In this document: positions 4,841 to 60,649 of the stretch, piece after piece
How positions within the stretch are numbered: the stretch's first letter is position 1
Layout: each line of letters begins with the position of its first letter
Assembly (NCBI RefSeq): GCF_963921235.1
Contig: NC_086097.1
Coordinates: 100,876,001-100,940,000, forward strand
Source: Mobula hypostoma
Lineage: Eukaryota
Reading direction: 5' to 3'
DNA length: 64,000 nt
The notes under the pieces: model-generated
Databases searched by the model: none
What the model was told of the DNA's origin: nothing
What the model saw: only the letters and a program-made list of their open reading frames with translations
Program-made: the position numbers and the translations under genes

Positions 4841-4948
4841 CAATAGCAATAGAAGCTGACAGCAGGACCAGAAAAAAAACTCACGACAATTTCATATGGT
4901 TCCTTTGGGTGCTCCAGCTTCCTCCTATTAATTGGTCACTGTTAGTAA

Positions 4949-5755: not shown

Positions 5756-5835
5756 ACATTTCATTTAGTGTGCAGGTGAGTGATAGAATCTGGGAGAGTT
5801 CATGGGATTATGGCAAAAATAAAATGGGTTAGGCA

Positions 5836-5888
5836 TAGGGATTCCCAACCTGGGATCTATGGCATAAAAAAAAAGATTGGGAACCCCT
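5836..5888. mobile_element. Tiny hAT-type MITE remnant
   Basis: aggggattcccaacct...agattgggaacccctg inverted ends, with ggttagg on both flanks. Confidence 0.45.
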
Positions 5889-5942
5889 GGGTTAGGGTAT
5901 GATTAGTGTAAAAATGGGTTGATGGTCAGCATAGATTCAGTA

Positions 5943-10780: not shown

Positions 10781-11267
10781 ACTTTCAAAATTACTGTATT
10801 ACTTTTCTGAAGTGCTTTAACCTCATCTGCAATTCAGCCAGAAATGTTTGAAGTTCATCTTGCAATTTACAATGAGGCTTACACCTAGACACAATATCTA
10901 CTGAATTACCATCATCTATTTGGTCAATTACTTGTTTAAAACATTTGATGTTGAATATGATGTTCCATTATGAATCCATACTAGTTATTGTCTTGTTTCT
11001 AGATGCTAACCTATTCTCTCCTTTAGCACGAATTCCATTTTCCCTTGTCCCCAGTGTTGGGCCAACTGGTCAATAATTCCCAATCACATTCAGTATACTT
11101 TCTTGTCAGTCCTCTGGATCTGCAAGACGTCCTAATGATCTATTATACTTACAGGCATTCTTCTGCTATCATTTACCCCAATTTTTGAAATGCAATCCAT
11201 TGAGACTAAAGCTTTTATCTTGAGTTTGATTAGGATATACAATTCATCCCTTCTTTCCATTTTAAAT

Positions 11268-14200
11268 AAAAGGACAGGAGGGTGGAGAGTATCTTAGCCC
11301 GTCGAAGCCCTTTGGGCTGAGGTGGGATGCAAAATGTGAGGAGACCTTTCAGTCGCCGAAGGAGCTGCTGACCCAGGAGCCAGTGCTGGCTTTTGCAGAC
11401 CCCTGATTGCCTTCGGTACTGCACACGGATGCCAGCTGAGGGGGTTTAGGGGGTGTCCCGTATCAGGATCAGGGCTCCGGGTTGAGGCCCGTTGCGTTTG
11501 TCAGCCGGAGTCTGTTGCCCTCCGAGAAAAACTATCCCACGCACAAGTTGGAATTTCTGGCATTGAAATGGGTGGTGTGACTACCTCTACGGGGCCAAGT
11601 TTGAGGTGAGGACGGACAACAACCCCCTAACTTATATCCTGACCTCGGCGAAACTGGATGCCGCAGGCCATCGGTGGTTGGTGGCATTGTCTCCTTATGA
11701 TTTCAGCCTGAAGTACCGGCCCAGAAGCCGGAACATTGATGCTGATGCTTTGTCCCGACGGGCACATAAGGGACTGGTCAGGGAGTGTTCCTGCCCCAGA
11801 GGTGAAGGCCCTGTGTCAGTTTGCCATCACCACGAAGGCAGAGGAAAAGGAGGGGCAGGAGTGAGCGGTGGATCAATTGGGGGCTTCTGATAACACCATC
11901 CCCCAAATTTACCGTAAACTGACTGCTCTGAAGACAAATCAGCTGATGGAATTGAGTTCTGCGGAAGTGGCTTGCTGCTCAGCGAGATGATCCGGGCATT
12001 GGTACATTTGGTCGGCGGCCGAAAAGGGAAACATGGCTCAGACGGAAAAGATGAAACATGCGTTGGTGCCTCCATTACTACGAGAACGGCCTCGGTTGGA
12101 ATTGAAGAACCGGGTCACGTCACCCGCAGACTGACCCCAGCGTTGCCAGCTGGTTCTGCCTGAGAAGTATTGGAGGACGGCGTTGAAATCACTTCATGAT
12201 GATTCTGGACATTTGGGGGTGGAAAAGACCTATGGATTGCTCAGAGATCAGTTTTACTGGCCCCGAATGAAGTCAGAGGTCGAAGAATACTGCAATTCAT
12301 ACATTCGATGCACACGGCGGAAGACACTGCCTACGCGGGCAGCTCCCTTGTCCCACTTGCAGAGTGCAGGGCCTCTGGACCTGGTGTGTTTGGATTTCCT
12401 TTCAATAGAACCCGATGCCAGCAACACAGCGAATGTCTTGATCATCACGGACCACTATAGCAGATATGCTCAGGCTTTTCCGACCAGAGGGTGTTGACAG
12501 TGGCCAAAGTGTTATGGGAGAAGTATTTCATTTATTACAGCCTCCCCAGACGGATACATAGTGATCAGGGACGGGATTTCGAGAGCAGACTCATCCATTA
12601 GTTACTGGGCATGCTTGGAGTCGAGGAGTCGAGACGTCAACAATAGACAATAGGTGCAGGAGTAGACCATTCGGCCCTTCGAGCCAGCACCGCCATTCAC
12701 TGTGATCATGGCTGATCAACCACTATCAGTATCCAGTTCCAAGTCGAGGGTGATCCCCAGCCATCAGACCTCGCTAGGCGTGCTCGGGACCCCTGGAGAT
12801 CAGCAGCAAGAGCAGGTGGAGTCAACATATTGGGCATCCGGTTCACAGTTATAATTGTACATGAAATGAAGCTACTGGGTACTTGCCATATTATCTGATG
12901 TTTGGGCACAAGGCAAGGTTGCCCATTGACCTTTGCTTTGGGACTGACGAGGTTGACTTACCAGTGAAGACTTATCTGAAGTATGTGTCTGACATGAGAA
13001 GAGAGTTGAAAAGGGCTTATGAATTAGTTGGGGTCACAGCTACCAAGCAGAATCAAGGGAATTAGAGGAGGTATGATCAAAAGGTGAGGTTCTCCCAATT
13101 CCTGCCAGGAGACAGAGTCCTCATAAGGAATTTGGGGCTACCTGGAAAGCACAAGTCGGCTGACCGCTGGGCAGCTACGCCCTATGTGGTGGAGAGTCAG
13201 ATGCCAAACCTACCAGTTTTCCGAGTGAAACCAGAGAATGGGAATGGGCCTGTCAAGATTCTCCATCGGAACCACCTGTTGCCCCTGGGACAAGAGGTGC
13301 AGGTAGACCCAGAGCCCAACTTGGAGCCTACACCTAGTAAGGGGACTCTGCGGAAATGCGGGGTGACTACCGGGCCCCTAACAGGCGAGGTTAGGCCGGC
13401 TCCCACCCCTGAAAGAGATACTGGTTGGGAGGATGAGGACCTGGATATGTGGTATATGCTGCCTTTCGCTAACTCCCCATTGATTGAGGAAGAGACTCCG
13501 GCCCTCCTCCCATTGAGACAGGTGAAGTGGTGGGGGGGGTGGATATCTGTGGGCAGCCTGGGTTGCAGCGGGACTCTGCAGGGGAGGAAGTGGGGTTTGA
13601 TCACAGGACAGAGGGCTCCGAGTTGCAGGCAGGCATGAGTGATAGATTGGGGGAGGCCTCGCCAGGTAGACAGGAAGTATTCCCAGTAGTGTCGGAACCT
13701 GAAGAGTTGGATGATGGGGTGCAGAGGTCTCAGAGAATTAGGAGACCATCAGATAGGATGGCCTATATAGCACCAGAGAAACAGAGTGTGACCCCTACTG
13801 TGTTGGGGAGCTATGTCACTGCCTTTTACACCTGGATTGGGCTTTGTGTTTTGCAGGAAGGGTTGGTGAATTATCTCAACGTCATGAGGACATGACTATA
13901 TTTGGTGGGAGGAGAGTGTAACATGCTGTAGGGTTTCACTGATAATGTAATGGTTTCTCTGTAGCAGCAACGTTTGGGTTATGACTAGAGATAATGGGGT
14001 TTGGAATGCTGGGGGCTAGCCAATGAGAGAACTGTTATTCTTTTTTGTGAGTCTGGAAGAGAGATTTTCGCAGTCTTTTGGCAGGGAGAGATAAGGAGAG
14101 AAAACGCAAATAGAGAGAGCTGGTAGACCGCTGGATGGAGTGGACTTGGAGCGAGGGTCCGAAGGGCAGCGACAATCGGAGGAGGTCGATGGTGGACAAC

Positions 14201-14478
14201 CGGCTTATCAGTGAGCTCCAATGTTGCGCAATAGACTGTTTCATAAGATTGGGCCCTTTTTCTTTTTTTTTGTTTCCTTTACTAACCATATAGTCAAAGT
14301 AAGAATAATGAAGCTTAATTGTTTAATTGCATATTGTATATTGTTTGTTATTTCAGGGTACCGATTTGTAACAGGGGGGCACATCACGCAGCATCCACCC
14401 AAACAAGATTTCTTAAATTTGGCCAGGCTGGGGGCTATCACCCCCTATATTAAGCCACTAGCCGAAGCAAGAGTTACA
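11268..14478 (+). mobile_element. 5'-truncated Ty3/Gypsy element: RNase H, integrase, PPT and 3' LTR
   Basis: LHTDAS and RTDNNPLTYIL (RNase H). HDDSGHLG..FYWPRM..C, DLVCLDFL and ITDHYSRYAQA (integrase). PPT ggtgggaggagag. A short antisense CR1 tail is inserted at ~12637-12740. Confidence 0.9.
13917..14478 (+). repeat. 3' LTR of the Gypsy element
   Basis: TGTAAC...GTTACA inverted termini directly after the PPT. Confidence 0.8.
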
Positions 14479-14794
14479 CACAAAAACAATGATATAATAC
14501 TCCTGCCATCTCTATCATCACCTGTGATTTTAATTCCTGTGTTCACAAATGGCCATATTCCATCTCGGCTTTCTTTTTATTGATGTGTACAATATGCCAT
14601 CATTTTATGTTTCCTGATCACTTAATTTCATAGTTCCTTGTTCCTTTCTTAATTATTTAATTGTTCTATCTCTTATTCCTTTCCATTCTTTCTCATTACG
14701 GATTCCTCTGAACCGAATTTCCTTTTGGCCTACTGCATCAAGTACCTTTTCCTCTGGCATCCGCATCAATTCATTACACCTCATGCTTACTCTT

Positions 14795-14980
14795 CCGCCA
14801 CCCACATATACCAAGGACAATTTACGACAACTTACCAACCAGTATGGTGTTGGCAAGTGGGGGAGAAACACAGCATCAGGAGGAAACTTACTATTCACTG
14901 TGAACATGCACAAACTCCAAATAGACAGCACTCAAGGTCAGAATCAAACCCGTGTCTCTAGAGCCGTAAGGTCAAACACT
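14795..14980 (-). mobile_element. tRNA-derived SINE (related copies at ~30440-30700, ~45440-45660, ~54850-55150)
   Basis: Reverse complement resembles the SINE at 16617 (ggacaatttac...caattaacc...caaactcc core). Confidence 0.55.
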
Positions 14981-17396
14981 GAACAGTTTGGTGCTCTATT
15001 TCCCAATACAGTACAAAAGACTGAGAGATGACTGAACTCTAGTGATAGAAGTCTTTAACATTCTGAAAGTGCATGACTGGATAAACAGAGAAGATGTTTT
15101 CACTTTTTGGGAAGAGTAGAACTAGGTTCATTCTGTCACCAACCAAATTTCATAAGAATTCTTAAAAACTTCATTACCAGAGATGGACTAGAGTGTGTAA
15201 TGTCCTCCCCACTGCAACTTGATCATGGCAACTAGCATAAAAATATCAATGGGGAAGAGAGATAAATGAGGGAGAGAGAAGGATATGTTGAATTACTGGA
15301 ATGATGGCAGCTCGTGATGCATAAATATTGGCACTGGCATAAATGTTGTCTGTGTTGTACTTATACTGTAAACGAAATAATATTCTGCAAGCCATCTCAC
15401 ATCAAATTGTTTCCTGCTTGAAAGGTCTTTAGAAAGTCTTTAAAAAAACACAATGAATACATCTAAAGGATACAAAAAGGAAAAAAAAACTTCCCCAGAT
15501 CTCCAATAATTAGCCAGTTAGAGCCAAACACTCCGTTGCGTTGGAAATTTTCAGTTTGTTGGAAGGTTATCCAGTCATCAAGGTACAAAGACCAATTAGG
15601 TCTTGTCCTGTCCCAATTCACTTCCCAGCTCATGCTGAGGTAGGTGAAATTCAAGAGCAACAGTTAGAGTAACACCCTCAGCTGGTGAGAAAAGCAATTT
15701 GAGCAAGAGAAAAAGATGATTCATCCATGGTTTCTCACAGACACCTTAATGTGCACACACAGACATACCATAAGACCATAAGATACGGGAGCAGAATTAG
15801 GCCATTTGGCCCATCGAGTCTGCTCCACCATTTCATCACGGTGGATCCATTTTTCCTCTCTGTCCCAGTCTCCTGCCTCCCCCTCCCCCCGCCGTATCCC
15901 TTCATTCTGTGACCAATCACGAATCTATCAAACTCTGCCTTAAATATATGTAATGACTTGGGTCCACAGCCACCTGTGGCAATGAATTCCACAGATTCAG
16001 CACTCTTTGTTCTGAGGCACTGTCCTCTGGTCTTAAGACTTTCCTACCACAGAAAACATCCTCTCCATATCCACTCCATCAAGGCCTTTCACAATTCAAT
16101 GGGTTTCAATTAGGTCACCCCTTATTTTTCTGAATTCTAGTGAATACAGCCCAGAGCCATGAAAAACTCTTCATATGACAAGCCATTCAATCCTGAAATC
16201 ATTTTTGTGAGCGTCCTTTGAACCCTCTCCAGTTTCAGCACATTCTTTCTAAGATAAGGGGCCCAAAACTGCTCACAATATTCCAAGTGATGCCTCACCA
16301 GTGCTGCATAAAGTCTTAACATTATATCCTTGCTTTTATATTCGAGTCCTCTTGAAATGAATACCAACTTTGCATTTGCCTTCCTCACCACAGGAAACCA
16401 GCAAATTAACCTTTAAGGAATTCTACACAGGGACTCCCAAGTTGTCACTGCACCTCAAATTTTTGTATTTTCTCTCCATTTAGAAAATAGTCAACTCTTT
16501 CATTTTTTTCTACCATAGTGCATGACCATACACTTCCCAAAACTGTATTCCATCTGCCACTTCTCTGCCCATTCTCCTAATCGGTCTAAGTCCTTCTGTA
16601 GCCTATTTCTTCAAAACGGTACGGTAGTGTGGCAGCTTGAATGCTTTACAGTACCAGTGACAAGGGTTCAACTCCCACTACTGCCTGTAAGGAGTTTGTA
16701 TGTTCTGCCTGTGACTGCATAGGTTTCCTCCAGGTGCTTCAGTTTTCCCCCGCAATCCAAAGGTGTATCGGCTGATAGGTTAGTTCAGGGGTCCCCAACC
16801 TTTTTTGCACTGAGGACCTGTTTAATATTGACAATATTCTTGCGGACCAGCCGACCTGGGGGGCGGTGGTGTAGGGTTGTCAACAGACAAGAGCAGCAGT
16901 CAAATACGTTGTGTTTACCCCGAGAAAGACTACAGTGACCATGAAGCCTTGCGCACGCACCAGTGCGTATGCGTGTACGTGTCGATTTTTTCCTACAAAT
17001 CGCTTTTGGCGATTCTGTTCCGGGGCGGGGGGGGGGGCGGTGTTAATTACGACCGGAATATAGGTGAGAAGTGGCTAATACACTCAATTTCGTTTCTAAA
17101 AGGGTTTATCTAACGAATTTATTATTAAACACACAGCACATACTTTCCTTGCATGAATATAGTGATAAATCAATTATCAGGGGAGCTTGAAGTAAGTGTT
17201 GAATGAACTTCCAGTAGAAGTGGTAGAGGCTGGTTCGATATTATCATTTTAAGAAAAATTGGATAGATATATGGACAGGAAAGGAATGGAGGGTTATGGG
17301 CTGAGTGCAGGTCGGTGGGACTAGGTGAGAGTAGCGTTGGGCACGGACTAGAAGGGCAGAGATGGCCTGTTTCCGTGCTGTAATTGTTATATGGTT

Positions 17397-18255
17397 TGTT
17401 ACGAGAATACACATAAAATTAAGATGTTTGCTGGCCTGGGCTAGCATCAGTGGCATCAGCAGTTGGTCTGCCACCTGCCCTCAGGGGAAGGAGAGATAAG
17501 GAACAATGGAGCAGCGTCTGGAGATGTGTAATGAAGGGATGTGGGAGAGAGAGCTGTCTGGAGCGGCTCCCCCCCTTTGAACCCTGAACTGTTTGAAGTG
17601 ATGGACAGGCGATACCCCAGCAGGGGGATAAAAAGGGACAGGTTCGCTAAGGCGACACACGCCACCCGAGGTAACGAGACCCTGGAAGCGGTGCGCCTCT
17701 CACGAGTGGGTGAGAAGTGCCAGACAACGACAAGGGTGGAAAGGTACGATCAGCGGGAACCCGGTGTGTGTCCGCCCTTGCCTGGGTGCCGGGTTCACTG
17801 CAGAGGATCGACCGCATCTGGAGGAGGGGTCACAGTCGGTGACCTCAGGTGACATCACCAAGGACCCGCCCAAAAGCTGCTTGTGAGTCATCTTGCTGGT
17901 CTGTGAGTGAAGCAGTGTTCTGAATGATGAGTTGTTCCTATTCTATCTCTCTCTTCCCCCACCTCGTCCATCGCCATGGCCACGATTACTGCGAACTGAA
18001 CTACTAACTGGACTGAACTTTGAGTCATTTTGAAATTGGTCATTTACCCCTAGACAACGATAGAGCTTGATTGATGCTGTTATCTTAATTCTGTGCACAT
18101 GTGCGTTTATCATCGCTGAACTGTTGCATTTATTATCCTTTCGATTAATGTGTTGCTTGTTTCTTTAATAAAACTTTCTTAGTTCTAGTACTCCAGACTC
18201 CAACTGAGTGATCCATTTCTGCTGGTTTGGCAACCCAGTTACGGGGTACGTAACA
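17397..18255 (+). repeat. 5' LTR
   Basis: Direct repeat of 21532-22390. I saw one difference by eye (T17888 vs C22023). Confidence 0.97.
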
Positions 18256-18259
18256 TAAG

Positions 18260-18278
18260 TGGGGTTCTCGTCCGCGAT
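18260..18278 (+). promoter_or_regulatory. Primer binding site, tRNA-Pro-like
   Basis: TGGGGTTCTCGTCCGCGAT versus canonical TGGGGGCTCGTCCGGGAT, 4 nt after the LTR. Confidence 0.75.
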
Positions 18279-18354
18279 TTTGAACGCTAAATTTGGGACG
18301 GAGTAAATTGATTGGGTTAAAATTCCCGAAAGAAAGAAAAGACAAACAGCAGAA

Positions 18355-21300
18355 ATGGAGGTTGAGGAATTTATAAAGGCGCCGACCTTGGAGGCATTAG
18401 AGGATGCCAGGAAATCGGAATTGATAGCTGTGGCCAAACGGGTGAATCTTGCTAAGGTGAAGTCGACAATGAGGAGAGAGGAGATACACAGAGCTATTGT
18501 AGAGCACTATGTATCTAAAGGTGTGTTTCCCCAAGGTGAGCTGGGGGAGGTGTCTATTGAAAAACCTGCTGGAGACGCGGTACAGGTACAGCTTGAAAAA
18601 CTGAGACTCGAGCACGAGTTCCGGGTACGGCAGTTAGAACACGAAGAGAAGCAGTTAGAAAGGCAGGAGAAAGAGAGAGAGTTAGAAAGGCAGGAGAAAG
18701 AGAGAGAGTTAGAAAGGCGGGAGAGAGAGAAAGAGTTAGAAAGGCAGGAGAAAGAGAGAGAGTTAGAAAGGCAGGAGAAAGAGAGAGAGTTAGAAAGGCA
18801 GGAGAGAGAGAGTTAGAAAGGCGGGAGAAAGAGAGAGAGTTAGAAAGGCGGGAGAGAGAGAAAGAGGTAGAAAGGCAAGAGAGAGAAAGACAGTTGGAGA
18901 GAGAGGAGAAACAGAGGGAAAGGGAATTTGAGCTGGAGAAGTTAAAGATAAGGGCCGAGCAGGGGCTCGTGCCGAACCAAGGTGGAGGGTTCCGGGCGAC
19001 CCAGGAGGTTAGGCTGGTTCCCCCATTTGACGATACCGATGTGGATCGGTACTTTCTCCACTTCGAAAAGGTGGCTATAAGTCAGGAATGGCCGAGGGAT
19101 AAGTGGGTTGTCTTACTTCAGAGTGTACTGAAAGGGAAGGCCCAACAAGCTTACTCCGCTTTATCCGCGGAAGATGCCCAGAAGTATGAGGTGGTGAAGG
19201 AGGCCATCCTCAGGATTTATGAGTTGGTCCCGGAGGCATACCGGCAGAGGTTCCGGAATGCGAGGAAGCGGTGGGACCGCACGTATTTGGAGTTTGCTCG
19301 CGAGATGCAAACATATTGTGAGCGTTGGTGCGCCTCGAAAGGGGTAGAGGGGGATTATGACAGACTGCTGCAGCTGATTCTGATTGAGCAGTTTAAAGGT
19401 TGTGTCCCTGAGGGTATGAGACCCTACCTCGATGAGAAAGAGGCAGCCACGTTAGCCGCAACTGCTAAGTTAGCGGATGAGTATGCGTTGACGCATAAAA
19501 TGAAGGTTGCCCCGAGTAAAGGCTACCAGAAGGGTAGTCAGGACGGCGGGGAGAGTCCACCGGAAAAGTCAGAAAGTAAGCCGGGGACTAGTGAGAAGGA
19601 TAAGGTAGACCGGGAGCAGTCTGGTAGGAAGTCTCCTGGGGTCGTCTGTTATAATTGTGGGAAAGTCGGACACTTTGCGTCCAGGTGCTTTGCCCCAAGG
19701 AAGGAGACGGGGAAAGGAAAAGCGGAAATTTTGAATGGCTGTATTGAGCTGTTAAGCGAACCGCTAGGGAAGGACAGGTCTGAAAAAGTTCAGGAAGGGC
19801 GCGAGAGGTTTATCTCGGCCGGATTGGTGTCGGTGAAGGAGAGGTTAAAACCAGTTCCAGTGCGGATCTGGAGAGACACGGGAGCGTGTCAGTCATTGAT
19901 ATTGAAGAGTGTATTAGAGTTTAGCTCAGAGACCCAGACTGGGGAGGTAGAGGTCAAAGGTGTTGGGAAAGGGACAGAGTCAGTCCCTTTGCACCAGATA
20001 CACTTGCAGAGCAACCTGGTCTCTGGACTAGTCACGATCGGGGTGAGGTCCGAATTACCGATGAAAGACGTGGAAGTCTTGCTCGGTAATGACATCGTCG
20101 GAGGAATCGTGTTCCCAGTCGTGAGATTGACGGGTCAGCCTGCCAGCATGGAGGCCCCGCCCGCGATGGTGAATTTGGCTGAAACATTTCTGCCAACCTT
20201 GTATGAGACAGGGTGTAGTGAGATAAGAGGTAGTGAGGGAGCTGGGACGGACGTAGCAGTAGCCAGGAAAGAATTTGTGCAGACGCAGGAGCGAGACGAG
20301 GGGCTGATGGTTTTTGCCGAGACCGCTCTCTCTGACACAGCCTTGACAAGGGAACTAGTAGGCTATTGTGCGGATGAGGAAGTGCTAAGGAAGAAAGGGA
20401 AATCAAGGACAGTATCCACAGATGAGGAGTGGGGGGTGGTGCAAAAGAGTTATGGGGATGAGGTTTTTAACATGGCCCACGAGGTACCCCCCGGTGGACA
20501 TTTTGCGGTGCTGGAGGAAACAGTTGGTGGAATCATGAAAGAGATTTACCGGCTGCCCAGGGGGAAAAATGTTATTGATCATGACCGACGCGAACTGAGA
20601 CGGTCACCGGCTTTTGATATGCTAACAAACCTAGTCGGTGTTAGCGTGGAAATCAATGAAGCTAGGGGCCCCTTGATAAGAGAAAAAAACCATTTTGAAA
20701 AGATTAGGATGGGATCGGTCAGATGGGAGAAGGCTATTGTTTTGGCCAGGTCTACTGATAAGGTCTCTCCCTTAATCCCCGAAGGAGTAATTAAACGACT
20801 CGCACCCATGTGTTTGATTGTCCCGAGGAAATGCAAAGAACTGGGACGTTGGGCGATTGTGGTTACAATAGGGCAGCCAAGTAAACAACACCCATATTTT
20901 TTGAGTAATTCAGTGACTAAAGGGCTGATGAACACAGAGGTGTGTATTGGCAATTTAACACGGCTGTCTGAAGCCAGCTTGATAGTGAACCTTGAAAAAA
21001 ATGAATTCGGCCACACGAAGGTCACTTACCTGGGAATTGTGGTGACACAGGGGCAGCTGGCAGTGATGCAAGCTACAGTGCAGGCTATCGCTGACCTCCC
21101 AACCCCGACAGACAAGAGGGCCCTCAGAAGGCTCTTGGAGATGGTGGGGTACTGCAGGAAGTTTTGCAATAACTCTGCGGTCAATACCCGTCCCCCTCCT
21201 ACTAAGCCCTTGCGAGAGAAAATTGAGTCGGAATGGGACGACCCTTGTTGTTGTGGTCCGGGACAAAACCAAATGAGAGGTTACATTGGTCGCAATTCAT

Positions 21301-21359
21301 CAGTGTTTTTGGCCACTATGAAGTTTGCTGAGTTGGAGCCTGGTCTAAGGGATTATTAA
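18355..21359 (+). CDS. Gag (coiled coil, SCAN-like capsid, CCHC), protease and degenerate IN/RT polyprotein; one frameshift near 18805
   Basis: LVPEAYRQRFR...LILIEQFKGCVP (SCAN-like), CYNCGKVGHFASRC, RDTGACQSLI (protease), AHEVPPGGHF (integrase zinc-finger start), LIVNLEKNEFGHTKVTYLG (RT remnant). Confidence 0.85.
18650..18910 (+). repeat. 27-bp coding tandem repeat (ELERQEKER) in gag
   Basis: GAGTTAGAAAGGCAGGAGAAAGAGAGA units. One unit is 4 nt short and shifts the frame. Confidence 0.9.
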
Positions 21360-21531
21360 TAACACGTGTAAAAGGAACAGAAAATGTGATGACTCTCTGT
21401 CAAGGTGTTGACAGCTTCAAATTCTCTGTATTAGCTAAATAACTGTTAAAGATGTATATTGTGTATGTATCAGATAATGTAGTCATGTTTGTAATTTTTA
21501 CCTCCCGGTAAAAATCCTTAAAGGGGGGAAG

Positions 21532-22390
21532 TGTTACGAGAATACACATAAAATTAAGATGTTTGCTGGCCTGGGCTAGCATCAGTGGCATCAGCAGTTG
21601 GTCTGCCACCTGCCCTCAGGGGAAGGAGAGATAAGGAACAATGGAGCAGCGTCTGGAGATGTGTAATGAAGGGATGTGGGAGAGAGAGCTGTCTGGAGCG
21701 GCTCCCCCCCTTTGAACCCTGAACTGTTTGAAGTGATGGACAGGCGATACCCCAGCAGGGGGATAAAAAGGGACAGGTTCGCTAAGGCGACACACGCCAC
21801 CCGAGGTAACGAGACCCTGGAAGCGGTGCGCCTCTCACGAGTGGGTGAGAAGTGCCAGACAACGACAAGGGTGGAAAGGTACGATCAGCGGGAACCCGGT
21901 GTGTGTCCGCCCTTGCCTGGGTGCCGGGTTCACTGCAGAGGATCGACCGCATCTGGAGGAGGGGTCACAGTCGGTGACCTCAGGTGACATCACCAAGGAC
22001 CCGCCCAAAAGCTGCTTGTGAGCCATCTTGCTGGTCTGTGAGTGAAGCAGTGTTCTGAATGATGAGTTGTTCCTATTCTATCTCTCTCTTCCCCCACCTC
22101 GTCCATCGCCATGGCCACGATTACTGCGAACTGAACTACTAACTGGACTGAACTTTGAGTCATTTTGAAATTGGTCATTTACCCCTAGACAACGATAGAG
22201 CTTGATTGATGCTGTTATCTTAATTCTGTGCACATGTGCGTTTATCATCGCTGAACTGTTGCATTTATTATCCTTTCGATTAATGTGTTGCTTGTTTCTT
22301 TAATAAAACTTTCTTAGTTCTAGTACTCCAGACTCCAACTGAGTGATCCATTTCTGCTGGTTTGGCAACCCAGTTACGGGGTACGTAACA
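21532..22390 (+). repeat. 3' LTR
   Basis: Near-identical to 17397-18255; follows the PPT. Confidence 0.97.
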
Positions 22391-46249: not shown

Positions 46250-47323
46250 AAATTGAGGAAAATGGGTGAATTGGAGGAATTTATAGTTCTGTAGAAAATT
46301 AAAGGTCAGAAGGAAGGAGAAGGAGGATTTAGAGCCCTTAATCCTTTGAAAGTGGCAGCAGCATTAGAGAACCAAATAGGTAAAGGATGCCAGGCCAAGA
46401 TTCTGTCTAATGGATTGCTGAAAATTTGTTGCAAAGACATTGACCAATATAACAGTGCTAAAATGGTGGGAAAATTGGTTGTGAAAGTGGAGCGTATTAC
46501 TCTGAAAGAAGGGAAGGGAGTTAAGGGGGTAGTGTATGGTATTTGGTCTGGCATGACTGAAAAGGAAATTTTGGACAATATTAAAGGTGGTTGAGTGATT
46601 GAAGCCAAATGATTAAAATTGAGAGAAGGTGGTAATTGGGATTCCCCTGTTCTTCTGGTTTTTGCAGGTGATGTTCTTCCAACTAGAGTCTATCTTGGGT
46701 GCATATCTTATCAGGTTAGAGAATACATTAGGCCTCCCTTACGCTGTTATAATTGCCAGAGATTTGGACATGTTGCTGGTTCATGTCGAGGTAAAAGAAG
46801 ATGTATGAAATGTGGAGAGAATCATGATATTAAAGCGTGTAAGGCAGCGGTGTCTAAATGCAGTAACTGTGGAGGGGACCATATAGTGGCGTTCAGAGGA
46901 TGTGAGTATTTTAGTAAGGCAAAGCAGATTCAGGATGTTAGTATCCAACAAAAAATATCATATGCTGAAGCAGTAAAGAAAGTTGATAGAGAGCAAAGGG
47001 TAAGTAAAGAAAAGATTGGAATGACAGGGAGTCAGCACATTCTGAGTTCTCCAACTATGGTTCCTTCAGGCATGTTGTTGATGACTAAAGAGTCTTTTTT
47101 GGTGCTTGTTGTTGATGTACTGGTCGGGGCTAAAACTACAGCCAAGAGGTCGGATATGATAAAAGTAGTTGTTGGAGCTGCAGAGAGACTCCTTGATATA
47201 AAACAGATTTCGCTGGAAAAATTACATGAGTATATGATAGACAAACAATCACTGAATACTTCCCAGTTGTTGGGATCAGAGAGTACGGAGGAGCTTTATG
47301 TGGATGAAGAGGCCAATAATTAG
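46250..47323 (+). pseudogene. Nimb ORF1 (gag-like), disrupted
   Basis: LNPLKVA...VKGVVYGI; CYNCQRFGHVAGSC, CMKCGENHDIKAC and CSNCGGDHIVAFRGC; stops near 46594-46612. Confidence 0.85.
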
Positions 47324-47330
47324 TATTTTG

Positions 47331-50300
47331 ATGTTTTTAATATTACAATGGAATGCAAGAAGTTTATCTGTAAATGGTCAAGAATTAAAAAGATTTGTTG
47401 GAACTTTTAAAGACAAGCGTGATTTGATCTGTATACAGGAGACAAGGTTAAAGTCTCATTTAGATTTTGTGATCCCTGGATATGATAGTTTGAGAGCTGA
47501 CAGAACAGGTAAATCTGGTGGAGGGTGTGCAACTGTCATAAAAACAGGACTCCAGTTTAGAAGACTTGATATTAAATCTAACCTTGAAATTGTGGCTGTG
47601 GAGGTTTGGAGCTCTTCTGGTCAAATAACTTTTAACTTTTATAATCCAGGTAATATGATGTTATTAGATTTGGATGAAATTATGACTAAGGTAAAATCCC
47701 CAGTAATCTGGGTTGGAGACTTCAATGCCCATAATCCTATATGGGGTAGTGAAAGTAAAGACAGTAATGGAGCGGTAATAGAGGAGTTTCTAGATAAATA
47801 CAACATGGTACTGCTAAATGACGGAAGGCCTACAAGATTTAATATTGTAAAGAATACGTGTAGTCACTTAGACTTATCTATCACTTCCTCAAACTTAGCT
47901 AGGGTTGGGGAATGGGATGTCATGGACAGATACACACTAGGAAGTGAACACTATCCTATATTATGTCAATTTGGTAGAAATTTGATAGTAGAAGTTGAGG
48001 AGACGTCTGCTAGGTATAATTTTTCTTTGGCCCATTGGGATGAGTACCAGGAGAAAGCTGTGGATATAATAGAAGAAATTAATAGCGAGGGCTCCATAGA
48101 TGATTGGAATGAATCCTTCTGTTCTATAATTCATAAAGTTGCTCAGTTGACTATTCCACTATGGAATGTACTTAAGGCTCGAGCATTAGTTCCGTGGTGG
48201 AATAAAAATTGTGATATAGCAGTAAGAAACAGAAATAGCGCCTACAGGAAATTAGGAAAGTACCCAGTGTTAGATAATCTGTTGGTGTCTGCTATCCTCA
48301 GCCCGCGCCACAGCGGCCTCAATGACAACAGACCGGTGGCATTGACCTCCCACATCATGAAGACCCTGGAGAGACTTGTGCTGGAGCTGCTCCAGCCTAT
48401 GGTCAGGCCACACTTAGATCCCCTCCAGTTCACTTACCAGCCCCGACTAGGAGTTGAGGATGCCATTGTCTATCTGCTGAACCGTGTCTACACCCACCTG
48501 GACAAGCCAGCGAGCACTGTGAGGGTCATGTTTTTTAACTTCTCCAGTGCATTCAACACCATCCGCCCTGCTCTGCTGGGGGAGAAGCTGACAGCGATGA
48601 AGGTGGATGCTTTCCTGGTATCATGGATTCTTGATTACCTGACTGGCAGACCACAGTACGTGTGCTTACAACACTGTGTGTCCGACAGAGTGATCAGCAG
48701 CACTGGGGCTCCACAGGGGACCGTCTTGTCTCCCTTTCTCTTCACCATTTACACCTCGGACTTCAACTACTGCACAGAGTCTTGTCATCTTCAGAAGTTT
48801 TCGGATGACTCTGCCATAGTTGGATGCAATCAGCAAGGGAGATGAGGTTGAGTACAGGGCTACGGTAGGAAACTTTGTCACATGGTGTGAGCAGAATTAT
48901 CTGCAGCTTAATGTGAAAAAGACTAAGGAGCTGGTGGTAGACCTGAGGAGAGCTAAGGTACCAGTGACCCCTGTTTCCATCCAGGGGGTCAGTGTGGACA
49001 TGGTGGAGGATTACATATACCTGGGGATACAAATTGACAATAAACTGGACTGGTCTAAGAACACTGAAGCTGTCTACAAGAAGGGTCAGAGCCGTTTCTA
49101 TTTCCTGAGGAGACTGAGGTCCTTTAACATCTGCCGGACAATGCTGAGGATGTTCTACGAGTCTGTGGTGGCCAGTGCTATCACGTTTGCTGTTGTGTGC
49201 TGGGGCAGCAGGCTGAGGGTAGCAGACACCAACAGAATCAACAAACTCATTCGTAAGGCCACTGATGTTGTAGGGATGGAACTGGACTCTCTCACGGTGG
49301 TGTCTGAAAAGAGGATGCTGTCTAAGTTGCATGCCATCTTGGTCAATGTCTCCCATCCACTACATAATGTACTGGGTGGGCACAGGAGTACATTCAGCCA
49401 GAGACTCATTCCTCCGAGATGCAGCACAGAGCGTCATAGGAAGTCATTCCTGCCTGTGGCCATCAAACTTTACAACTCCTCCCTTGGAGGGTCAGACACC
49501 CTGAGCCGATAGGCTGGTCCTGGACTTATTTCATAATTTACTGGCATAATTTACATATTACTATTTAATTATTTATGGTTCTATTACTATTTATTATTTA
49601 TGGTGCAACTGTAATGAAAACCAATTTCCCCTGGGATCAATAAAGTATAACTATAATGTTATGGAGTATAAAAGGAAACAGCAGTGGCAAGGAGAGTAAT
49701 TAAAAATGCAAAGAGGGATAGATTTTGTGGAACCCTGGGCCCTGAGACACCTATAAAGCAGCTATGGACAATCATTCACAGAATGTCAGGGATATATAGG
49801 AAACCATCTATCCCAGCTTTGCTGGCAGGAGATATTGAAGCTGTAACCAATAAGGAAAAGGCTGATATGTTTGTAGAGGTGTTCCAAGCGTTACACAGTT
49901 CTGGAGAGTTAGGTGATTTGAGAAAGGAAATTATGTTAAAGGAAAGTTGGAAATTAGACAGGAGTTTGGATGATAATAGCTCCATAGATTTGTTTTTCTC
50001 CCTTCAGGAACTGCAGGAAGCTGTCCAATCAGGTTCAAACACTTCTGATAGGGATGGACTGTGTTATGAATTGCTTAAGCATTTAGTTGACTCTGTATTA
50101 ATAGAAATTCTAGCATTGTTTAATTCAGTGTGGAAAGAAGGAAAATTACCAGCAGAATGGAAGCATGGGATGGTAGTTCCAGTTTTAAAGTCCGGTAAGG
50201 ATGCGTTTAGTCCTAGTTCGTATCGACCTATAGCTTTAACTTCAGTGCTTTGTAAAACTATGGAATGAATGGTCACCAACAGACTTGTTTACTTTTTGGA

Positions 50301-52448
50301 AAATAAGGGACATTTTGCTGCCTATCAAAATGGTTTTAGAACTGGAAGATCAACAATGGAATCTGTTGCCCTTTTAGATCATGATATTAAAAAAGCGTTT
50401 CAAAATAGAGAAGTAATGGTAAGTGCATTTCTAGATATTGAAAGAGCATATGACTCACTGTGGAAGGATGGCTTATTAATTAAAGTCTATGATGCGGGAA
50501 GCAGAGGTAGAATGTTTAATTGGATCAAAGATTTCCTTAAGGAAAGGACAATTCAAGCATAAGAATAGGTAGAACAAGCTCCAAGTCAGTTAAAATACAA
50601 ACGGTAGGTAATGGTACCCCTCAAGGAAGTGTCATTAGTCCAGTTCTTTTTAATGTCATGATAAATGATATCTTTGATCAGGTAGGGACAGGATTTGGCA
50701 AATCATTGTTTGCAGACGATGGTGCAATCTGGAAAAGAGGAAGAAACATCAAGTATATATCAAGGCAGGTACAAAAGGCTTTAAGATCAGTTGAAAACTG
50801 GGCTAATAAATGGGGTTTCAGGATTTCTGCTTCTAAGTCCAAATACATGATTTTTGGCCTTAGAAGAAAGATTCCTGATTGTGAATTGTGTCTATATGAT
50901 TCTCCACTAGAAAGAGTCAAGGTATTCAAGTTTTTAGGTGTCTGGTTTGATGAAAGACTTACTTGGAGGGTTCATATAAATAAAACAATTGGAAAGTGTG
51001 AGAAAGATTTAAATGTTATGAGAAGTATTGCTGGATGCAACTGGGGAGCAGGGCGGGAAACTATGCACTTAATATATCTAGCTATGATTAAATCAGTTAT
51101 AGATTATGGTTGTATTGTTTATGGTTCCACTGCTACGGCAGTGCTTGGAAAACTAGACACTGTGCAGTCCAAGCACTTAGACTCTGTTGTGGAGCCTTTA
51201 GAACAACATCAGTCCTGGCATTATGTGTGGAGATGGGAGAAGTGCCTCTACATTTAAGACGAGTTCAGTTGGGCCTGCAGTGTTGGGTAAAACTAAATGG
51301 ATTCAATCACAGCTGTCCATCAAAGTGTCTTTTGCAGGGGAAGTTGGAGCGCCAAAGTAAAATTAGAAGATACTCATTTTTAGATTTGATTAATAACTGG
51401 GCTGTGAAATTGAAACTGACTGAGGAAGACATAGTTGGCCAAATTTGCTTGCCACCCGTCCCTTTTTGGCTCTTTCCAGAACCAGAAGTAGACCTATTCT
51501 TCCTTTTTTAGGAAGCAGTGCAATTTCATCAGCGTTGATCACAAATGAATATTTAAATAATAAATGGGGATCTTATCTGAAGATTTTTACTAATAGCTCA
51601 GTGGACCCAGTGGATCCTGCAGTAGGGCAGGATTTGGGATGTATGTGTCTCAACTTGGAGTTAAGATTGGTCACCGGGTTTCAGATGGTGTTTCTGTCTT
51701 TGCAACAGAATTATTAGCAATCCTCTGGGCCTTATGGTGGAAAGAAGTCTCTCGACCACGTAGGGTTATCATCTGTTCGGATTCTGCTGCTGCCTTAGAG
51801 TCTATAAAAGGGAGTAAATCAAAAGCTCGTCCTGACATAGTTATTGAGATTCTCTTAGTGTTGTTTACAGTAGGGAAGATGAGTTGTGCAGCTAGATTTT
51901 CATGGATACCTGGGCATGCTGGGGTGGAGGGAAATGAAATTGTGGATGGCATTGCAAAGTCTTCCTTACAGAGCAGGCAAGTAGAAATTAGAGTTCCCCT
52001 AGGCAGAGCAGAATTGAGAAGTAGGATTAAAAAAGGTATAGCAAAGAAATGGCAGGAGGATTGGAAAAATGAATTAAGGGGCAGGCATTATTTTTCTAGT
52101 CACCCACTAGTTAAAAAGGTCTCAGACTGTTACCTTTTAAATCGTAGAGATATGGTGAAATTTACAAGACTTGGGTTGGGGCATTGTGGGCTAAACTATT
52201 ATTTAAAGATAATAGGAAAACATCCCACTGGATTATGTGACTGTGGTAGTCCAGAGACAGTCCAGCATGTTTTGCTGAGCTGTAATCGACACAAAATTGA
52301 AAGAAGCATGCTGTTCAAGAGGCTATCTGGCTTAAATTTATTTTGGTTTTCTATTCAATCTTTGTTTGGCCATCAAGAGAATCAACATCTGATTGAAGAG
52401 TTTATCATTCAGTTTATACGTGAGACTAGGTTGTATTCGAGAAGTTGA
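47331..52448 (+). pseudogene. Nimb ORF2 (APE-RT-RNase H), disrupted by stops, frameshifts and a Rex1 insertion
   Basis: Consecutive ORF-track pieces starting at 47298, 49684, 50269, 50658, 51110 and 51639 are in the expected domain order. Confidence 0.9.
48279..49652 (+). mobile_element. Young 5'-truncated Rex1 LINE inserted in Nimb ORF2
   Basis: RPVALTSHIMK, DPLQFTY, GAPQGTVLSPFLF and KFSDDS; 3' gatcaataaagta; TSD ATAAT (48274-48278 and 49653-49657). Removing it restores the Nimb frame ...LDN|VMEYKRK. Confidence 0.92.
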
Positions 52449-53027: not shown

Positions 53028-53762
53028 AGCTCCAAGAACCCAAGCCTCGAGGATCCCACAGCCAAGCTCCAAGAACCCAAGCCTCGAGGATCCCGCAGCC
53101 AAGCTCCAAGAACCCAAGCCTCGAGGATCCTGCAGCCAAGCTCCAAGAACCCAAGCCTCGAGGATCCTGCAGCCAAGCTCCAAGAACCCAAGCCTCGAGG
53201 ATCCTGCAGCCAAGCTCCAAGAACCCGATCCTGCAGCCAAGCTCCAAGCCTCGAGGATCCTGCAGCCAAGCTCCAAGAACCCAAGCCTCGAGGATCCCGC
53301 AGCCAAGCTCCAGACCCAAGAACCCAAGCCTCGAGGATCCCGAGCCAAGCTCCACACCCAAGAACCCAAGCCTCGAGGATCCCGCAGCCAAGCTCCAGAC
53401 CCAAGAACCCAAGCCTCGAGGATCCTGCAGCCAAGCTCCAGACCCAAGAACCCAAGCCTCGAGGATCCCGCAGCCAAGCTCCAGACCCAAGAACCCAAGC
53501 CTCGAGGATCCCGCAGCCAAGCTCCAGACCCAAGAACCCAAGCCTCGAGGATCCCGCAGCCGAGCTCCAGACCCAAGAACCCAAGCCTCGAGGATCCCGC
53601 AGCCAAGCTCCAGACCCAAGAACCCAAGCCTCGAGGATCCTGAGCCAAGCTCCAGACCCAAGAACCCAAGCCTCAAGGATCCCGCAGCCAAGCTCCAGAC
53701 CCAAGAACCCAAGCCTCGAAGATCCCGCAGCCAAGCTCCAGACCCAAGAACCCAAGCCTCAA
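53028..53762 (+). repeat. Minisatellite, about 18 units of 37 bp then 43 bp
   Basis: Unit CCAAGAACCCAAGCCTCGAGGATCCYGCAGCCAAGCT(+CCAGAC). CTCGAG spacing is 37 (53046-53194) and then 42-43 (53287-53758). Confidence 0.95.
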
Positions 53763-55194
53763 GAGCTAAGACTCCAGCCTGTCTCCAAGCTCAGGCCTCT
53801 AGACCCCAGCCACATCTTGTCCTGAAGCCATGTCATGTCCTTGCCTGGTTCCGGAGTCCGAGCCCGAGGCAAGTCCTAGATTCTGGGTCCTTGTTCCGTC
53901 TCGGGCTCGGAATGTAAGCCTTGTCTCCTAGTCCATGGTTCCTAGTCCTGATCTCGCTTTCCCTAGCGCAAGTCTGCATTCTTGTCCCTGCTCCTTGCCT
54001 GAATCCTGTCAAGTCCCTACTCTAGTCAAGTCCTGTTCCTTGTACTTCAGTGTCTGTGTCTCACATTTGGGTCCATTCCCAGCACCCCTTTGCGATAAAG
54101 TTAAGAGTCATAATCATTTTACTATGTTAGAAGAGTTGAAAACTAGAGGACATAGATTTAAGGTGAGAAGGGAAACATTAAAAGGTGACCTGAGAGACAA
54201 ACTATTTTCACCGAGGGTAGGTAGTGGGTCTGTGGTATTTTGCACAGGTTTAAAGTTTTAATCTCCTAACACCCCTTTCCTTAGACAGCCATTAGGTTGC
54301 GTCAACACATTGAGAATGATGACAAGTTCTGTCACAGTCCGTCTTTGCTGAAAGATGGATCCTGAAATATGCAATGTAATCTACAACTACCAAAAAATGT
54401 ATACTGTACCATGCTAGTCACACCACAGTTTGGGTAATGCCACAGCATACCACATTGCAGGAAAGATACGATTGCTTTGGTGAAGGTGCCAAGGTGATTT
54501 ATGAGTTGTTTCCAGGACAATTTTTGTTGTATGTTTAGCCTAGAATTGTTGTTTTCCACAAAAGGAGACTGGAGTGAGCGTCAATTAAGTGTATAAATGA
54601 TTAGTGATTTGGAATAAAGTGGAAAGACTGTAGTGCTGTCCAATATCAGGGAAAATTAATTTAAAGTAATTGTAACAAGAATTATAAGGGAAATGGTGAC
54701 TTTTCTTTACAATCAGGGGTATGAAGAGTCTGGAACAGATGAAGAAAACACTCAACACATTTAAGTAAAAACTTGAAAGCTTTCTTGGACAGCCATGGAC
54801 TTTATGCTGGAAAATGGGATTAGGCTGAGACACAATGTGCCAAATGTTATGAGTCATGCCATACAGAAAAAGACCCTTCAGCCTACAGAATCTGCATTGA
54901 CTCTCAACAACCATTTACAGTTATCTTATTTTATTGTTCCTATATTCCCCTCAACTTTCCCCCCTACACACAGAGACCCAGTAAATTACCAACCTACTGA
55001 TCTTTAGAGCTTTGGACAAAACTGGAGCACCTAAGGGAAACTCAGATAAGTCACAATGAGAATGTGCAAAGACTGACAGCACCAGAGGTCATGATTAAAT
55101 CTGGGTTCAGGAAGACGAAAAACTACAGCACTACCAGCTAAGATAATCTGCTGCTATGATTTTATGACAAAGTTGCTATGTACTGCTGATACAT

Positions 55195-57110: not shown

Positions 57111-57444
57111 TATCACTGGCACCAACCGACCTGCCATCAAGGAAGGATGCTGGAAAAGGCCAATAATGTGAAGTGTCCCGCTAATGTTGCTCATGGACTG
57201 TTTGCCCCACTCCCATCAGGGAGGAGGCAACATAACATCAGCACCACGACCACCAGACTTAAACAGTTACACAAAAGATGAGAAAATCTGCAGATGCTGA
57301 AAATCCAAGCAGCACACAGAATTCTGGAAGAACTCAGCAGGCCAGGCAGCATTTATGAAAAAGGGCAAGCAGTCAATGTTCCTGATGAAGGGTCTCAGCC
57401 TGAAACATTGACTGCTTACTCTTCTTCATAAATGCTGCCTTGTA

Positions 57445-58205: not shown

Positions 58206-58350
58206 TCAATAACATCGCCTATTTTGAACCACTTGCAAGCCTCCTTATCTTGCTTCCTCCATTTTTCTAAATTATTAACTATTTCAAAAGAAGGACTGAG
58301 TCCCATAGAATCCCATGTAACAACATTCTCATCACAGAAACATCCACTGA

Positions 58351-60591
58351 TGTTCTTTATTTACTATTTAACTAATATTGTAAATGTTAAGCATTCTTTA
58401 TTAAATAATTCATTATAGATTGTACATAAACATATGTGAATTGCATATGTCATGCGCTATCATGTGATATGTGAGCATCTTGCTTAAAGCAAAAAACAAA
58501 GTTAGACTTGCAATTCCAGACCCTCCTGTTTTTATTTCGATTACTTTGTTTTGGAGTTACAAAACACAACTTAGACGACGAGGTATTTTTAAAGCGTACC
58601 CAAGATGACTACCTACCTGTTGAAGTGCAGCGAAATATTTAAGTTTTAAAAAAAGCACAGCAAGGAATGGCAGAGTAAAAAAAAACAGCACAGCACAGCA
58701 CATGTCCTTTGAAAGGGAACAAAAAGGCAGAAAATAGAAGAATTCACAGATTCATAAACATGAGCCCTGGGAGATAATCATTCTGTAATTCTTTTAAAAA
58801 ACTGCAGAAATAGCTGGCTACCTCAGAAAGAATAACACTTTTGCACGACAGATAACTACATTTTGAAGCAAATAAAATGGCCAATGAGAAACAAGTATCA
58901 GTTTTGCTGGGTGCACTGGGTGAAAAATCATACAGTTTGCTTAGGAGTTTGACTACTCCAACTAAACCAACGGAAATGAGCTTTGCTGATATCATGAAAG
59001 TTATGCAAAAATATTTAGAACCAAAACCACTGATTGCAGAATGCTTTAAGTTTCATAAGCAGAATCAAAAGAAAGGAATGTCCACTTCAGCATACGTGGC
59101 TAAATTAAAGAGGTTGTCCAAGCATTGTCAGTTTAATGATGTAATCGGAGATAGTTTTGTTTGTGGAATCTTACAAGAAAACATGCAAAAACAACTCATA
59201 ACTGAAGCACAACTTTTATTTTAAAGAACAGTTGAAATAGCTGTATCAATAGAAACAACAGACAGAGACTCAATTAAGAGAACATGACCAAAATTGCAAT
59301 GTCTAAACAGAAACCGACCTGGCAGGGACTCACACACCAGCCCAATGCAGGTTTAAATGCAAAACTTGCAGAAAATGTTGCAAAGTAGGACACATACAAA
59401 GAGCGTGCTAGGCAGACAAAAATAAATGGACGGCACAGGCTAGAGAAAAAGATAAAAAGTTGCAGTTTCAAAAACAGCACTAATCTGCACACTGTTGATT
59501 GAAAAATATGATCATGATTAGAGTGTCAAAGGACTGTGCAACCTTAAGAATTACAATTTGAAAACTAACAATAGACAAGCAACACGGCTTTCAACTGAAA
59601 TGAATGGCAAATTAAATTAAAATGGAATTCAACACTGTCTCAGGTCAACATGGCCACCCAGGATGGTGGAACTTGCAGCAAAAACTCCAGCTCCCCCATT
59701 TTTTTTTAAACCAGTGCTGAGATGAACTGTTGCCTAACAGAGGACAAAAGGTGTTGGTGTGCCTCTGGTTGAACCGAGAAACAACTATGCAGCTCAAAGG
59801 AAGCGTGAAAGTGATTAAAAACAGTGGTCAGATTACAATTGTTTTTGTAGGTAACATATGTGAGAAAGCCTCTGATATGTTAATCTGTCAGTTAAATGCG
59901 CAATGTGGCTTAGTTTTAAGGTGGAAGAGAGTTCAAGGAACTTCAGGAAAGTTGAAAGCATTTGGCTTTTATGAGTATAAAGAAATAGAATCTAGTGGGA
60001 GACAAAAACTGCTTATAAAAGTAGGGAAAAGCTAGGAAAAGATGAAGAAAGGTGCCCAGAACGGTCAGAGCCATTTCCTGCTGTCTCAGAGTCAACTCCT
60101 AGAATCATGGAGGAGGCCCCAAAAACCTGACATTGTTTTACAGCTACAAGATTCACTTGCCAAGCAGAATGACCCCCATTGTCAGGAAAAACATTACCCC
60201 ACAAGAGTAAGAAATCCTCCATAGTGATTAACTCTTCAGGCTTGAATGGGACCATTTAAAATTTACTCTGCTCTGGGTGTCTGTATAGTAGTTGTATTAC
60301 TGTGTATATATTTGAGATGCATTTTGTATTGATTTGGATTTTATAGCTAAGCAGGGAGGAGTGTTGTTTATTTAATATTTCAGTAATATTTGAGTAATAT
60401 TGTAAATATATTGATTAAGTAATTTTTAATAATTCATTACAGGTTTTATGTAAAAATCTGAATTGCATGGATCAGACCAGCACATGATATGTGAGTGCCT
60501 CACTGAAAGTAAAAAATGACGTTAGACTTGCATTCCAGACTCTCTTGTTTTTATTTCAATTACTTGTGTTTTGGAGTTACAAAATATAACA
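58351..60591 (+). mobile_element. Gypsy LTR element with pol replaced by host-derived sequence
   Basis: LTRs at ~58351-58571 and 60362-60591; TSD ACTGA (58346-58350 and 60592-60596); decayed tRNA-Ser-like PBS (tagacgacgagg); PPT AAGCAGGGAGGAG; gag at 58877-59224. Confidence 0.88.
59751..60024 (+). pseudogene. RBM25: RBM25 RRM-domain retrocopy fragment
   Basis: TIVFVGNICEKASDMLICQLNAQCGLVLRWKRVQGTSGKLKAFGFYEYKEIES versus recalled RBM25 TTVFVGNISEKASDMLIRQLLAKCGLVLSWKRVQGASGKLQAFGFCEYKEPES. Confidence 0.9.
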
Positions 60592-60649
60592 ACTGATCTT
60601 AACTCATTTAAGATGGAATTATTACTTTTGCCCTTCTCTCTTCTTTCTC

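What the first reader, a model, noticed from the sequence alone, without database searches (positions are those of the whole stretch)
58351..60591. LTR retrotransposon whose pol is replaced by an RBM25 mRNA fragment
Seen: two LTRs, a 5-bp TSD (ACTGA), a PBS remnant, gag and the first protease residues (MEFNTVS at 59622). The sequence then switches at ~59641 to non-element DNA encoding the RBM25 RRM, and returns at ~60027 to a pol C-terminal tail and the PPT. The insert has no visible poly(A) or TSD of its own, and RT, RNase H and integrase are missing at exactly this point. Established: template switching lets LTR elements and retroviruses transduce host mRNA. Inference: this is LTR-mediated capture of a splicing-factor transcript, possibly amplified as a family. 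The copy is decayed, with indels and an in-frame stop.
Basis: partly seen in the sequence, partly recalled or inferred. Interest (0 to 1): 0.75.

Follow-up and report, generated by a model that had tools for sequence, protein, structure and literature searches.

The report
Jumping gene carrying spliced RBM25 piece
This is an old, dead copy of a retrovirus-like jumping gene whose copying enzymes are gone and which carries an intron-free piece of the host splicing-factor gene RBM25; such capture is known, but here the captured piece seems to have been multiplied to hundreds of copies.

Summary
Confirmed with corrected boundaries. 58351-60591 is a decayed Ty3/Gypsy element: LTRs 19% diverged, TSD ACTGA, PPT, gag, a protease stub and the last ~34 polyprotein codons. 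About 990 codons (most of protease, RT, RNase H, integrase) are missing. The host piece is RBM25 (72% amino-acid identity) and crosses two junctions that hold introns in 2 of 2 fish-type RBM25 genes, so it is spliced. It spans about 59751-60024, not from 59641; 59643-59750 is unassigned. It starts at an exon start, so the 5' joint may have been made by splicing. In DNA runs of two species, 35-124 distinct contigs per site cover the RRM part at about 40-1,400 times single-copy depth, mostly with the host letter. The RBM25 piece is therefore highly repeated, most likely inside a non-autonomous chimeric family; shared junctions among copies were not shown here. The insertion is shared with a species about 6% diverged. 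The scan noted this chimera before at five other places in this genome (unchecked notes). The mechanism is known (Tan et al. 2016); the scale is unusual.

The parts
58346..58350 (.). left target-site duplication ACTGA
58351..58571 (+). 5' LTR (221 nt; starts TG, ends CT)
   Evidence: 19% diverged from the 3' LTR
58573..58583 (+). primer-binding-site remnant
   Evidence: directly after the LTR; a family contig shows a TGG-starting motif at this place (table 5c); tRNA-Ser assignment is recalled, not tested
58859..59420 (+). gag remnant with one CCHC knuckle; stops and frame breaks
   Evidence: tblastn to P0155 residues 38-215 (41%, E 2e-41) and 225-254 (60%, E 3e-8); P0155 and P0166 carry RT, RNase H and integrase Pfam domains
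59600..59642 (+). first ~14 codons of the protease, broken by a frame shift, ending at the catalytic-motif position
   Evidence: the two pieces score best at adjacent places 293-297 and 298-306 of the 1333-aa P0166
59643..59750 (.). 108-nt segment of unknown origin (GC 0.47), ends in AAG
   Evidence: no Pfam hit, no significant match to pol, no Rfam hit, low contig depth
59751..59900 (+). RBM25 exon A (starts V-L-V, ends at the LLA position), with small indels
   Evidence: X9 record 29 lies from 59758; exon start in fish locus L030; V-L-V preceded by AG
59901..59958 (+). RBM25 exon B, 58 nt, joined without introns
   Evidence: 58-nt exon between GT-AG introns in L028 and L030
59959..60024 (+). 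5' part of RBM25 exon C, with a net 12-codon internal loss; 3' joint lies about 60024-60050
   Evidence: 12-residue gap against P0001; nucleotide match to L028 and L030
60025..60227 (+). polyprotein C-terminal tail remnant ending YPTRVRNPP
   Evidence: tblastn to P0166 and P0167 residues 1295-1328; family-level contig depth
60349..60361 (+). polypurine tract
60362..60591 (+). 3' LTR (230 nt, TG...CA)
   Evidence: 691 (X1) and 689 (X12) contigs have unrelated loose ends before 60362
60592..60596 (.). right target-site duplication ACTGA

Best explanation
During the RNA stage of a Ty3/Gypsy element (Mag-like), a spliced RBM25 transcript piece was joined into the element in place of most of pol. 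The product kept both LTRs, PBS, PPT and gag, so intact relatives could package, reverse-transcribe and integrate it, and it spread as a non-autonomous family of some hundreds to about a thousand copies. This locus is one old, dead copy. Shown: anatomy, RBM25 identity, missing introns (against fish orthologues), loss of pol, many RBM25-like sequences in genomic DNA, and insertion older than the split from organism D. Inferred: RT template switching at the 3' joint, mobilisation in trans, and that the many RBM25 pieces sit in the same chimera.
For: One TSD around two LTRs. RBM25 match 72% to P0005, named RBM25 and carrying RRM and PWI domains. Two introns present in 2 of 2 fish-type loci are absent here. 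The piece is sense, ends inside the coding region and has no poly(A). At 9 listed sites in 59833-59955, 35-122 contigs (X1) and 35-124 (X12) carry another letter, the same one as the RNA-type contigs; summed depth is 451-17,120 (X1) against 11-15 in the unique flank. Read by hand against P0005, 7 of the 9 give the RBM25 residue, 1 is silent and 1 cannot be judged. About 690 LTR starts with unrelated flanks per DNA run. Re-mobilisation of such chimeras is reported in fly (PMC5131818, section 5).
Against: Summed contig depth is not a copy number (tool warning). No listed contig that is clearly from another locus bridges both joints. X12 record 13 bridges the 3' joint and is more diverged (34 of 294) than the flank-anchored orthologue (14 of 222; Fisher p 0.047), but it shares this copy's 12-codon loss and may be the orthologue. 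Depth falls to 95-165 over 59662-59833 and to 22-33 at 59803-59817, so the 5' part is not shown to be family-wide; equally low values occur inside the element's 5' region (12-18 at 58765-83) and a low bin in the LTR (252), so this is not absence either. The host's own RBM25 gene and the parent element were not available. 108 nt are unexplained. A 7-nt direct repeat flanks the piece.
Confidence: 0.8

Rival explanations
1. Variant of the best explanation (its share lies within the 0.8): splice-in capture. An element in or upstream of the RBM25 gene was transcribed through, a donor site ending at 59750 was spliced to the acceptor of exon A, and only the 3' joint was an RT template switch, as in the classical model of retroviral oncogene transduction (recalled). 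Alternatively 59643-59750 is a rare upstream RBM25 exon or a second captured RNA.
For: V-L-V codons at 59751 match the exon start in L030 and follow AAG, an exon-end-like triplet without a pyrimidine tract. Such a codon start occurs in 2.3% of random 23-nt stretches, and with AG before it in 0.24% (pattern chosen after seeing the data).
Against: Only 8 nt support the exon start, and they need a short gap; the candidate mRNA contig aligns only from 59758. L028 lacks this intron. The upstream 108 nt are not shown to be element sequence. Fly chimeras also show a switch point near exon junctions without this model (PMC5131818, section 5).
Confidence: 0.25
2. A LINE-made processed RBM25 pseudogene inserted into an already pol-deleted LTR element, with the 7-nt repeat as its TSD; the composite may then have been amplified.
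For: 7-nt direct repeat at 59747-53 and 60048-54; the unassigned segment has the GC content of the tail (0.47 against 0.455) rather than that of gag or RBM25 (0.34-0.37).
Against: The repeat is at chance level (7% and about 14%). There is no poly(A), and the piece stops near residue 160 of a protein whose full-length relatives have over 800 residues, whereas LINE priming starts at the 3' end (established).
Confidence: 0.08
3. The repeated RBM25 piece belongs to another repeat, and this locus is a one-off recombinant between it and a Gypsy copy.
For: Depth drops sharply upstream of about 59830; no paralogous contig is proven to bridge both joints.
Against: Depth over the RRM is of the same order as over gag and tail; 14 (X1) and 19 (X12) contigs with another letter cover 59662, 20 nt past the protease stub.
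Confidence: 0.08
4. Assembly chimera.
For: None found.
Against: Contigs with 0-1 differences bridge the joints in X1 and in the separate sample X9; the insert is about 15% diverged from the candidate host transcript (35 substitutions over 237 nt).
Confidence: 0.01

Closest known systems
LTR-mediated retrocopies of animals (Tan et al. 2016, PMC5131818; seen: abstract, sections 5 and 6 whole, 12 passages; supplements not read)
   Same: Partial, mainly 3'-truncated mRNA piece replacing internal ORFs between two LTRs; no poly(A); sense strand; can move again as a non-autonomous element.
   Different: There: 18 insertion sites for nine fly retrocopies, and 5 zebrafish, 4 chicken, 8 mouse and 3 human cases. 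Here: an old copy, with read evidence for 10^2-10^3 related sequences; the 5' joint lies on an exon start; microsimilarity untested.
HERV-K capture of FAM8A1 (Jamain et al. 2001, seen only as cited in PMC5131818)
   Same: Vertebrate LTR element carrying a processed host gene.
   Different: Retroviral rather than Gypsy carrier; described there as a single case, no large family mentioned.
Mag lineage of Ty3/Gypsy (PMC3286476; seen: 12 passages including Table 1)
   Same: Short LTRs (119-304 nt there, 221-230 here), mostly 5-bp TSD, Ser/Leu primer (here recalled only).
   Different: RT is absent here, so clade membership cannot be tested; the comparison set is from mosquito.

Membership tests
Ty3/Gypsy LTR retrotransposon | two direct LTRs with TG...CA ends and a 4-6 bp TSD | tested here: met
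   the last base of the 5' LTR is mutated
Ty3/Gypsy LTR retrotransposon | PBS after the 5' LTR and PPT before the 3' LTR | tested here: inconclusive
   PPT clear; PBS decayed, tRNA match from recall only
Ty3/Gypsy LTR retrotransposon | gag-protease-RT-RNase H-integrase order | tested here: inconclusive
   gag, protease stub and tail are colinear with P0166, which has this order; RT, RNase H and integrase are absent from this copy
Mag clade | placement in the RT/RNase H/integrase tree | not testable with these tools
   domains missing from this copy; no parent element held
Mag clade | short LTRs and 5-bp TSD | tested here: met
   against Table 1 of PMC3286476; not diagnostic alone
RBM25-derived sequence | RRM closest to RBM25, not to other RRM proteins | tested here: met
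   top 4 of 205 hits are 72-74% identical at E about 1e-18 to 1e-19; P0005 named RBM25, with a PWI domain; other solved RRMs reach only E 3.5e-6 or worse
LTR-mediated retrocopy | introns of the parent gene absent | tested here: met
   two junctions crossed that hold GT-AG introns in 2 of 2 fish-type loci among 55; the host's own gene was not seen
LTR-mediated retrocopy | host piece replaces, rather than interrupts, element ORFs | tested here: inconclusive
   about 990 codons missing between protease stub and tail, but 108 unassigned nt lie between stub and RBM25
LTR-mediated retrocopy | no poly(A) and no TSD of its own | tested here: met
   longest A-run 5; 7-nt repeat at chance level
LTR-mediated retrocopy | microsimilarity between mRNA and element at the joints | not testable with these tools
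   neither the parent element nor the host mRNA sequence was returned
non-autonomous chimeric LTR family | many copies share both joints and have different TSDs | tested here: inconclusive
   high multiplicity of the RRM piece and of LTR ends; joint sharing not shown directly

The most novel reading that the evidence does not exclude
The founder was made by splicing an element transcript onto an RBM25 exon, in frame, so that it encoded a Gag-protease-RRM-tail fusion; the captured splicing-factor RRM helped the element (RNA packaging, export or protection from splicing), and this drove its spread to about a thousand copies. In this decayed copy the protease stub's second piece, the RBM25 start, the RRM core and the tail motif all still fall in one frame. 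That is weak evidence, given the indels between them.
Probability: 0.1. Interest if true: 0.8.

Novelty: new member of a known kind. Interest (0 to 1): 0.45.

Why it matters
It extends LTR-mediated mRNA capture to a Gypsy family in this vertebrate lineage and suggests that a captured host exon chain can be amplified a hundred- to a thousand-fold. Such a family gives a dated series of copies for testing how capture joints form and whether cargo is ever under selection. It could also produce false 'RBM25-like' gene models and mis-mapped RNA reads. This copy itself is dead.

Tried and rejected
No whole genome was held, so copies could not be counted. The word-based protein search with the RRM frame gave 1 hit among 52 longer candidates and 0 among 3 near-length candidates; no gag-RRM fusion protein appeared among 154 proteins aligned back to the element. 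These are weak negatives. The ESM Atlas gave only generic RRM clusters. Origin of 59643-59750: Pfam 0 of 5 peptides, Rfam 0, tblastn with 7 polyproteins no match below E 0.3, two-protein profile best E 0.18; a likeness to the start of RT scored 28, no better than chance frames (27-30), and was rejected. No run was on record as RNA: 'no RNA holder listed'. X9 and X19 are guessed RNA, so expression of this copy is not claimed. Low depth over 59662-59833 was not read as absence. Sequence look-ups in earlier findings returned nothing. Structure prediction was not run: the frames are decayed. The host species was not determined; 'ray' comes from earlier notes only.

Full report
Observation. The element runs from 58351 to 60591. 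The 5' LTR (58351-58571) and 3' LTR (60362-60591) agree at 172 of 212 ungapped columns (p-distance 0.19, K2P 0.22; score 155 against at most -77 in 300 shuffles), and ACTGA stands directly outside both ends. A polypurine tract precedes the 3' LTR and a decayed PBS follows the 5' LTR; its tRNA-Ser assignment is recalled. In DNA runs, 691 (X1) and 689 (X12) contigs begin at the LTR start with unrelated flanks, so the LTR family is large. No whole genome was held.

What the element kept. gag at 58859-59420 matches P0155 (41%, E 2e-41; knuckle piece E 3e-8). P0155 and its 1333-aa cluster member P0166 are gag-protease-RT-RNase H-integrase polyproteins. Two short peptides at 59600-59642 score best at adjacent residues 293-306 of P0166, the protease start, and 60117-60221 matches its residues 1295-1328. 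About 990 codons are thus missing, including nearly all of the protease. The clade looks Mag-like by LTR size and TSD (PMC3286476, passages and Table 1), but this cannot be tested without RT.

The host piece. The frame at 59817-59996 is an RRM. The four best of 205 hits are 72-74% identical, and one of them, P0005, is named RBM25 and has a PWI domain. A net 12 codons are lost near 59994. Among 55 metagenome loci, two are fish-type RBM25 genes (L028, L030). Both have GT-AG introns between the LLA and KCG codons and within the codon after KLQ, around a 58-nt exon. The window crosses both places without an intron (59900/01 and 59958/59). Many invertebrate loci share these introns; some lack the second (L017, L023-L027) and L010 lacks both. 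The host's own gene was not seen, so intron loss is inferred from orthologues. In run X9 (RNA is the tool's guess) one contig of depth 77 lies unbroken over 59758-59994 with 35 substitutions and 13 gap letters; I take it as the host mRNA, which is an inference.

That contig does not align upstream of 59758, though it has 145 more letters. V-L-V codons at 59751 match the start of the exon in L030 and follow AAG; such a pattern occurs in 0.24% of random stretches, but I chose it after looking. The 108 nt at 59643-59750 match nothing tested. The 3' joint lies at about 60024-60050. There is no poly(A). A 7-nt direct repeat flanks the piece, at chance level (7% of shuffles, about 14% of random pairs).

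Real, old and repeated. Contigs with 0-1 differences bridge the joints in X1 and in the separate sample X9; X1 may be the source sample. In organism D a contig bridges the left flank and the LTR with 14 differences in 222, so the insertion predates that split. I laid 4 of the 24 listed runs. Depth in the unique flank is 11-15. At nine listed sites in 59833-59955 it is 451-17,120 in X1 and 623-17,163 in X12, with 35-124 distinct contigs per site (counting stops at 128) carrying the letter that the RNA-type contigs carry; by hand, 7 of the 9 give the RBM25 residue. A single-copy gene cannot give this. The tool warns that summed depth is no copy number, so I claim only an order of 10^2-10^3. Against a simple reading: depth is low over 59662-59833, though also at places inside the element's 5' region and LTR; 436 difference rows, 1,690 joints and 67,464 pieces were not shown; and the one non-identical listed contig over the 3' joint (X12 record 13, 11.6% diverged, p 0.047 against the flank contig) may be the orthologue.

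Mechanism. The best reading is capture of spliced RBM25 RNA during the element's RNA stage, loss of pol, and spread in trans because LTRs, PBS and PPT were kept (0.8). The 3' joint inside an exon fits a template switch. The 5' joint on an exon start allows a splice-in route (0.25, within the 0.8). A LINE-made pseudogene inserted into a deleted element (0.08) and a one-off recombinant with another repeat (0.08) fit less well.

Known and new. Tan et al. [quoted passage not shown] A review agrees (PMC5470649; 12 passages). I found no paper with RBM25 plus retrocopies or RBM25 plus retrotransposon plus shark. A manta-ray genome preprint has no mention of RBM25 in its main text (10.64898/2026.10.27.761883; 12 passages; its supplements are closed). 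The listings showed no high-copy vertebrate case, but I saw only listings, the library lacks most subscription papers, and Tan's supplementary tables were not read.

Earlier notes. After I had recorded my reading (capture 85%, amplification 65%), the scan's notes showed the same chimera at five other places in this genome, and similar families with SUDS3, 4E-T, USP35 and myosin cargo. These are unchecked leads, not support. The five RBM25 notes span 3.0-4.8 kb against 2.2 kb here, so this copy may have lost more, which could explain the protease stub and the unassigned segment.

Verdict. A real, dead copy of a probably large Gypsy family with spliced RBM25 cargo. New member of a known kind; interest 0.45.

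Noticed in passing
window 17397-22390: Very young Gypsy-type element: 859-nt LTRs 99.9% identical, 4-bp TSD GGTT, a 920-aa frame with SCAN and zinc-knuckle domains but no RT or integrase Pfam hit at E 0.01. It looks internally deleted yet recently inserted.
   Followed up: partly
window 46613-52448: Long LINE-like frames; 47256-48845 has endonuclease and RT domains; the arrangement suggests one LINE nested in another.
   Followed up: no
window 12135-13895: Remnant of another LTR element with an integrase H2C2 domain.
   Followed up: no
window 53028-53763: Tandem repeat array with long open frames on both strands.
   Followed up: no
window 57344-57440: 37-nt inverted repeat, 92% complementary, 23 nt between the arms.
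   Followed up: no
L028 412-624 against L030 454-955: One of two fish-type RBM25 loci lacks the intron before the V-L-V exon that the other has.
   Followed up: no
window 59616-60224: Protease stub (second piece), RBM25 start, RRM core and tail motif fall in one reading frame despite indels between them.
   Followed up: partly
same genome, other windows: Earlier notes report several more Gypsy families with captured spliced host genes (SUDS3, 4E-T, USP35, myosin); if they hold, mRNA capture with amplification is recurrent in this genome.
   Followed up: no
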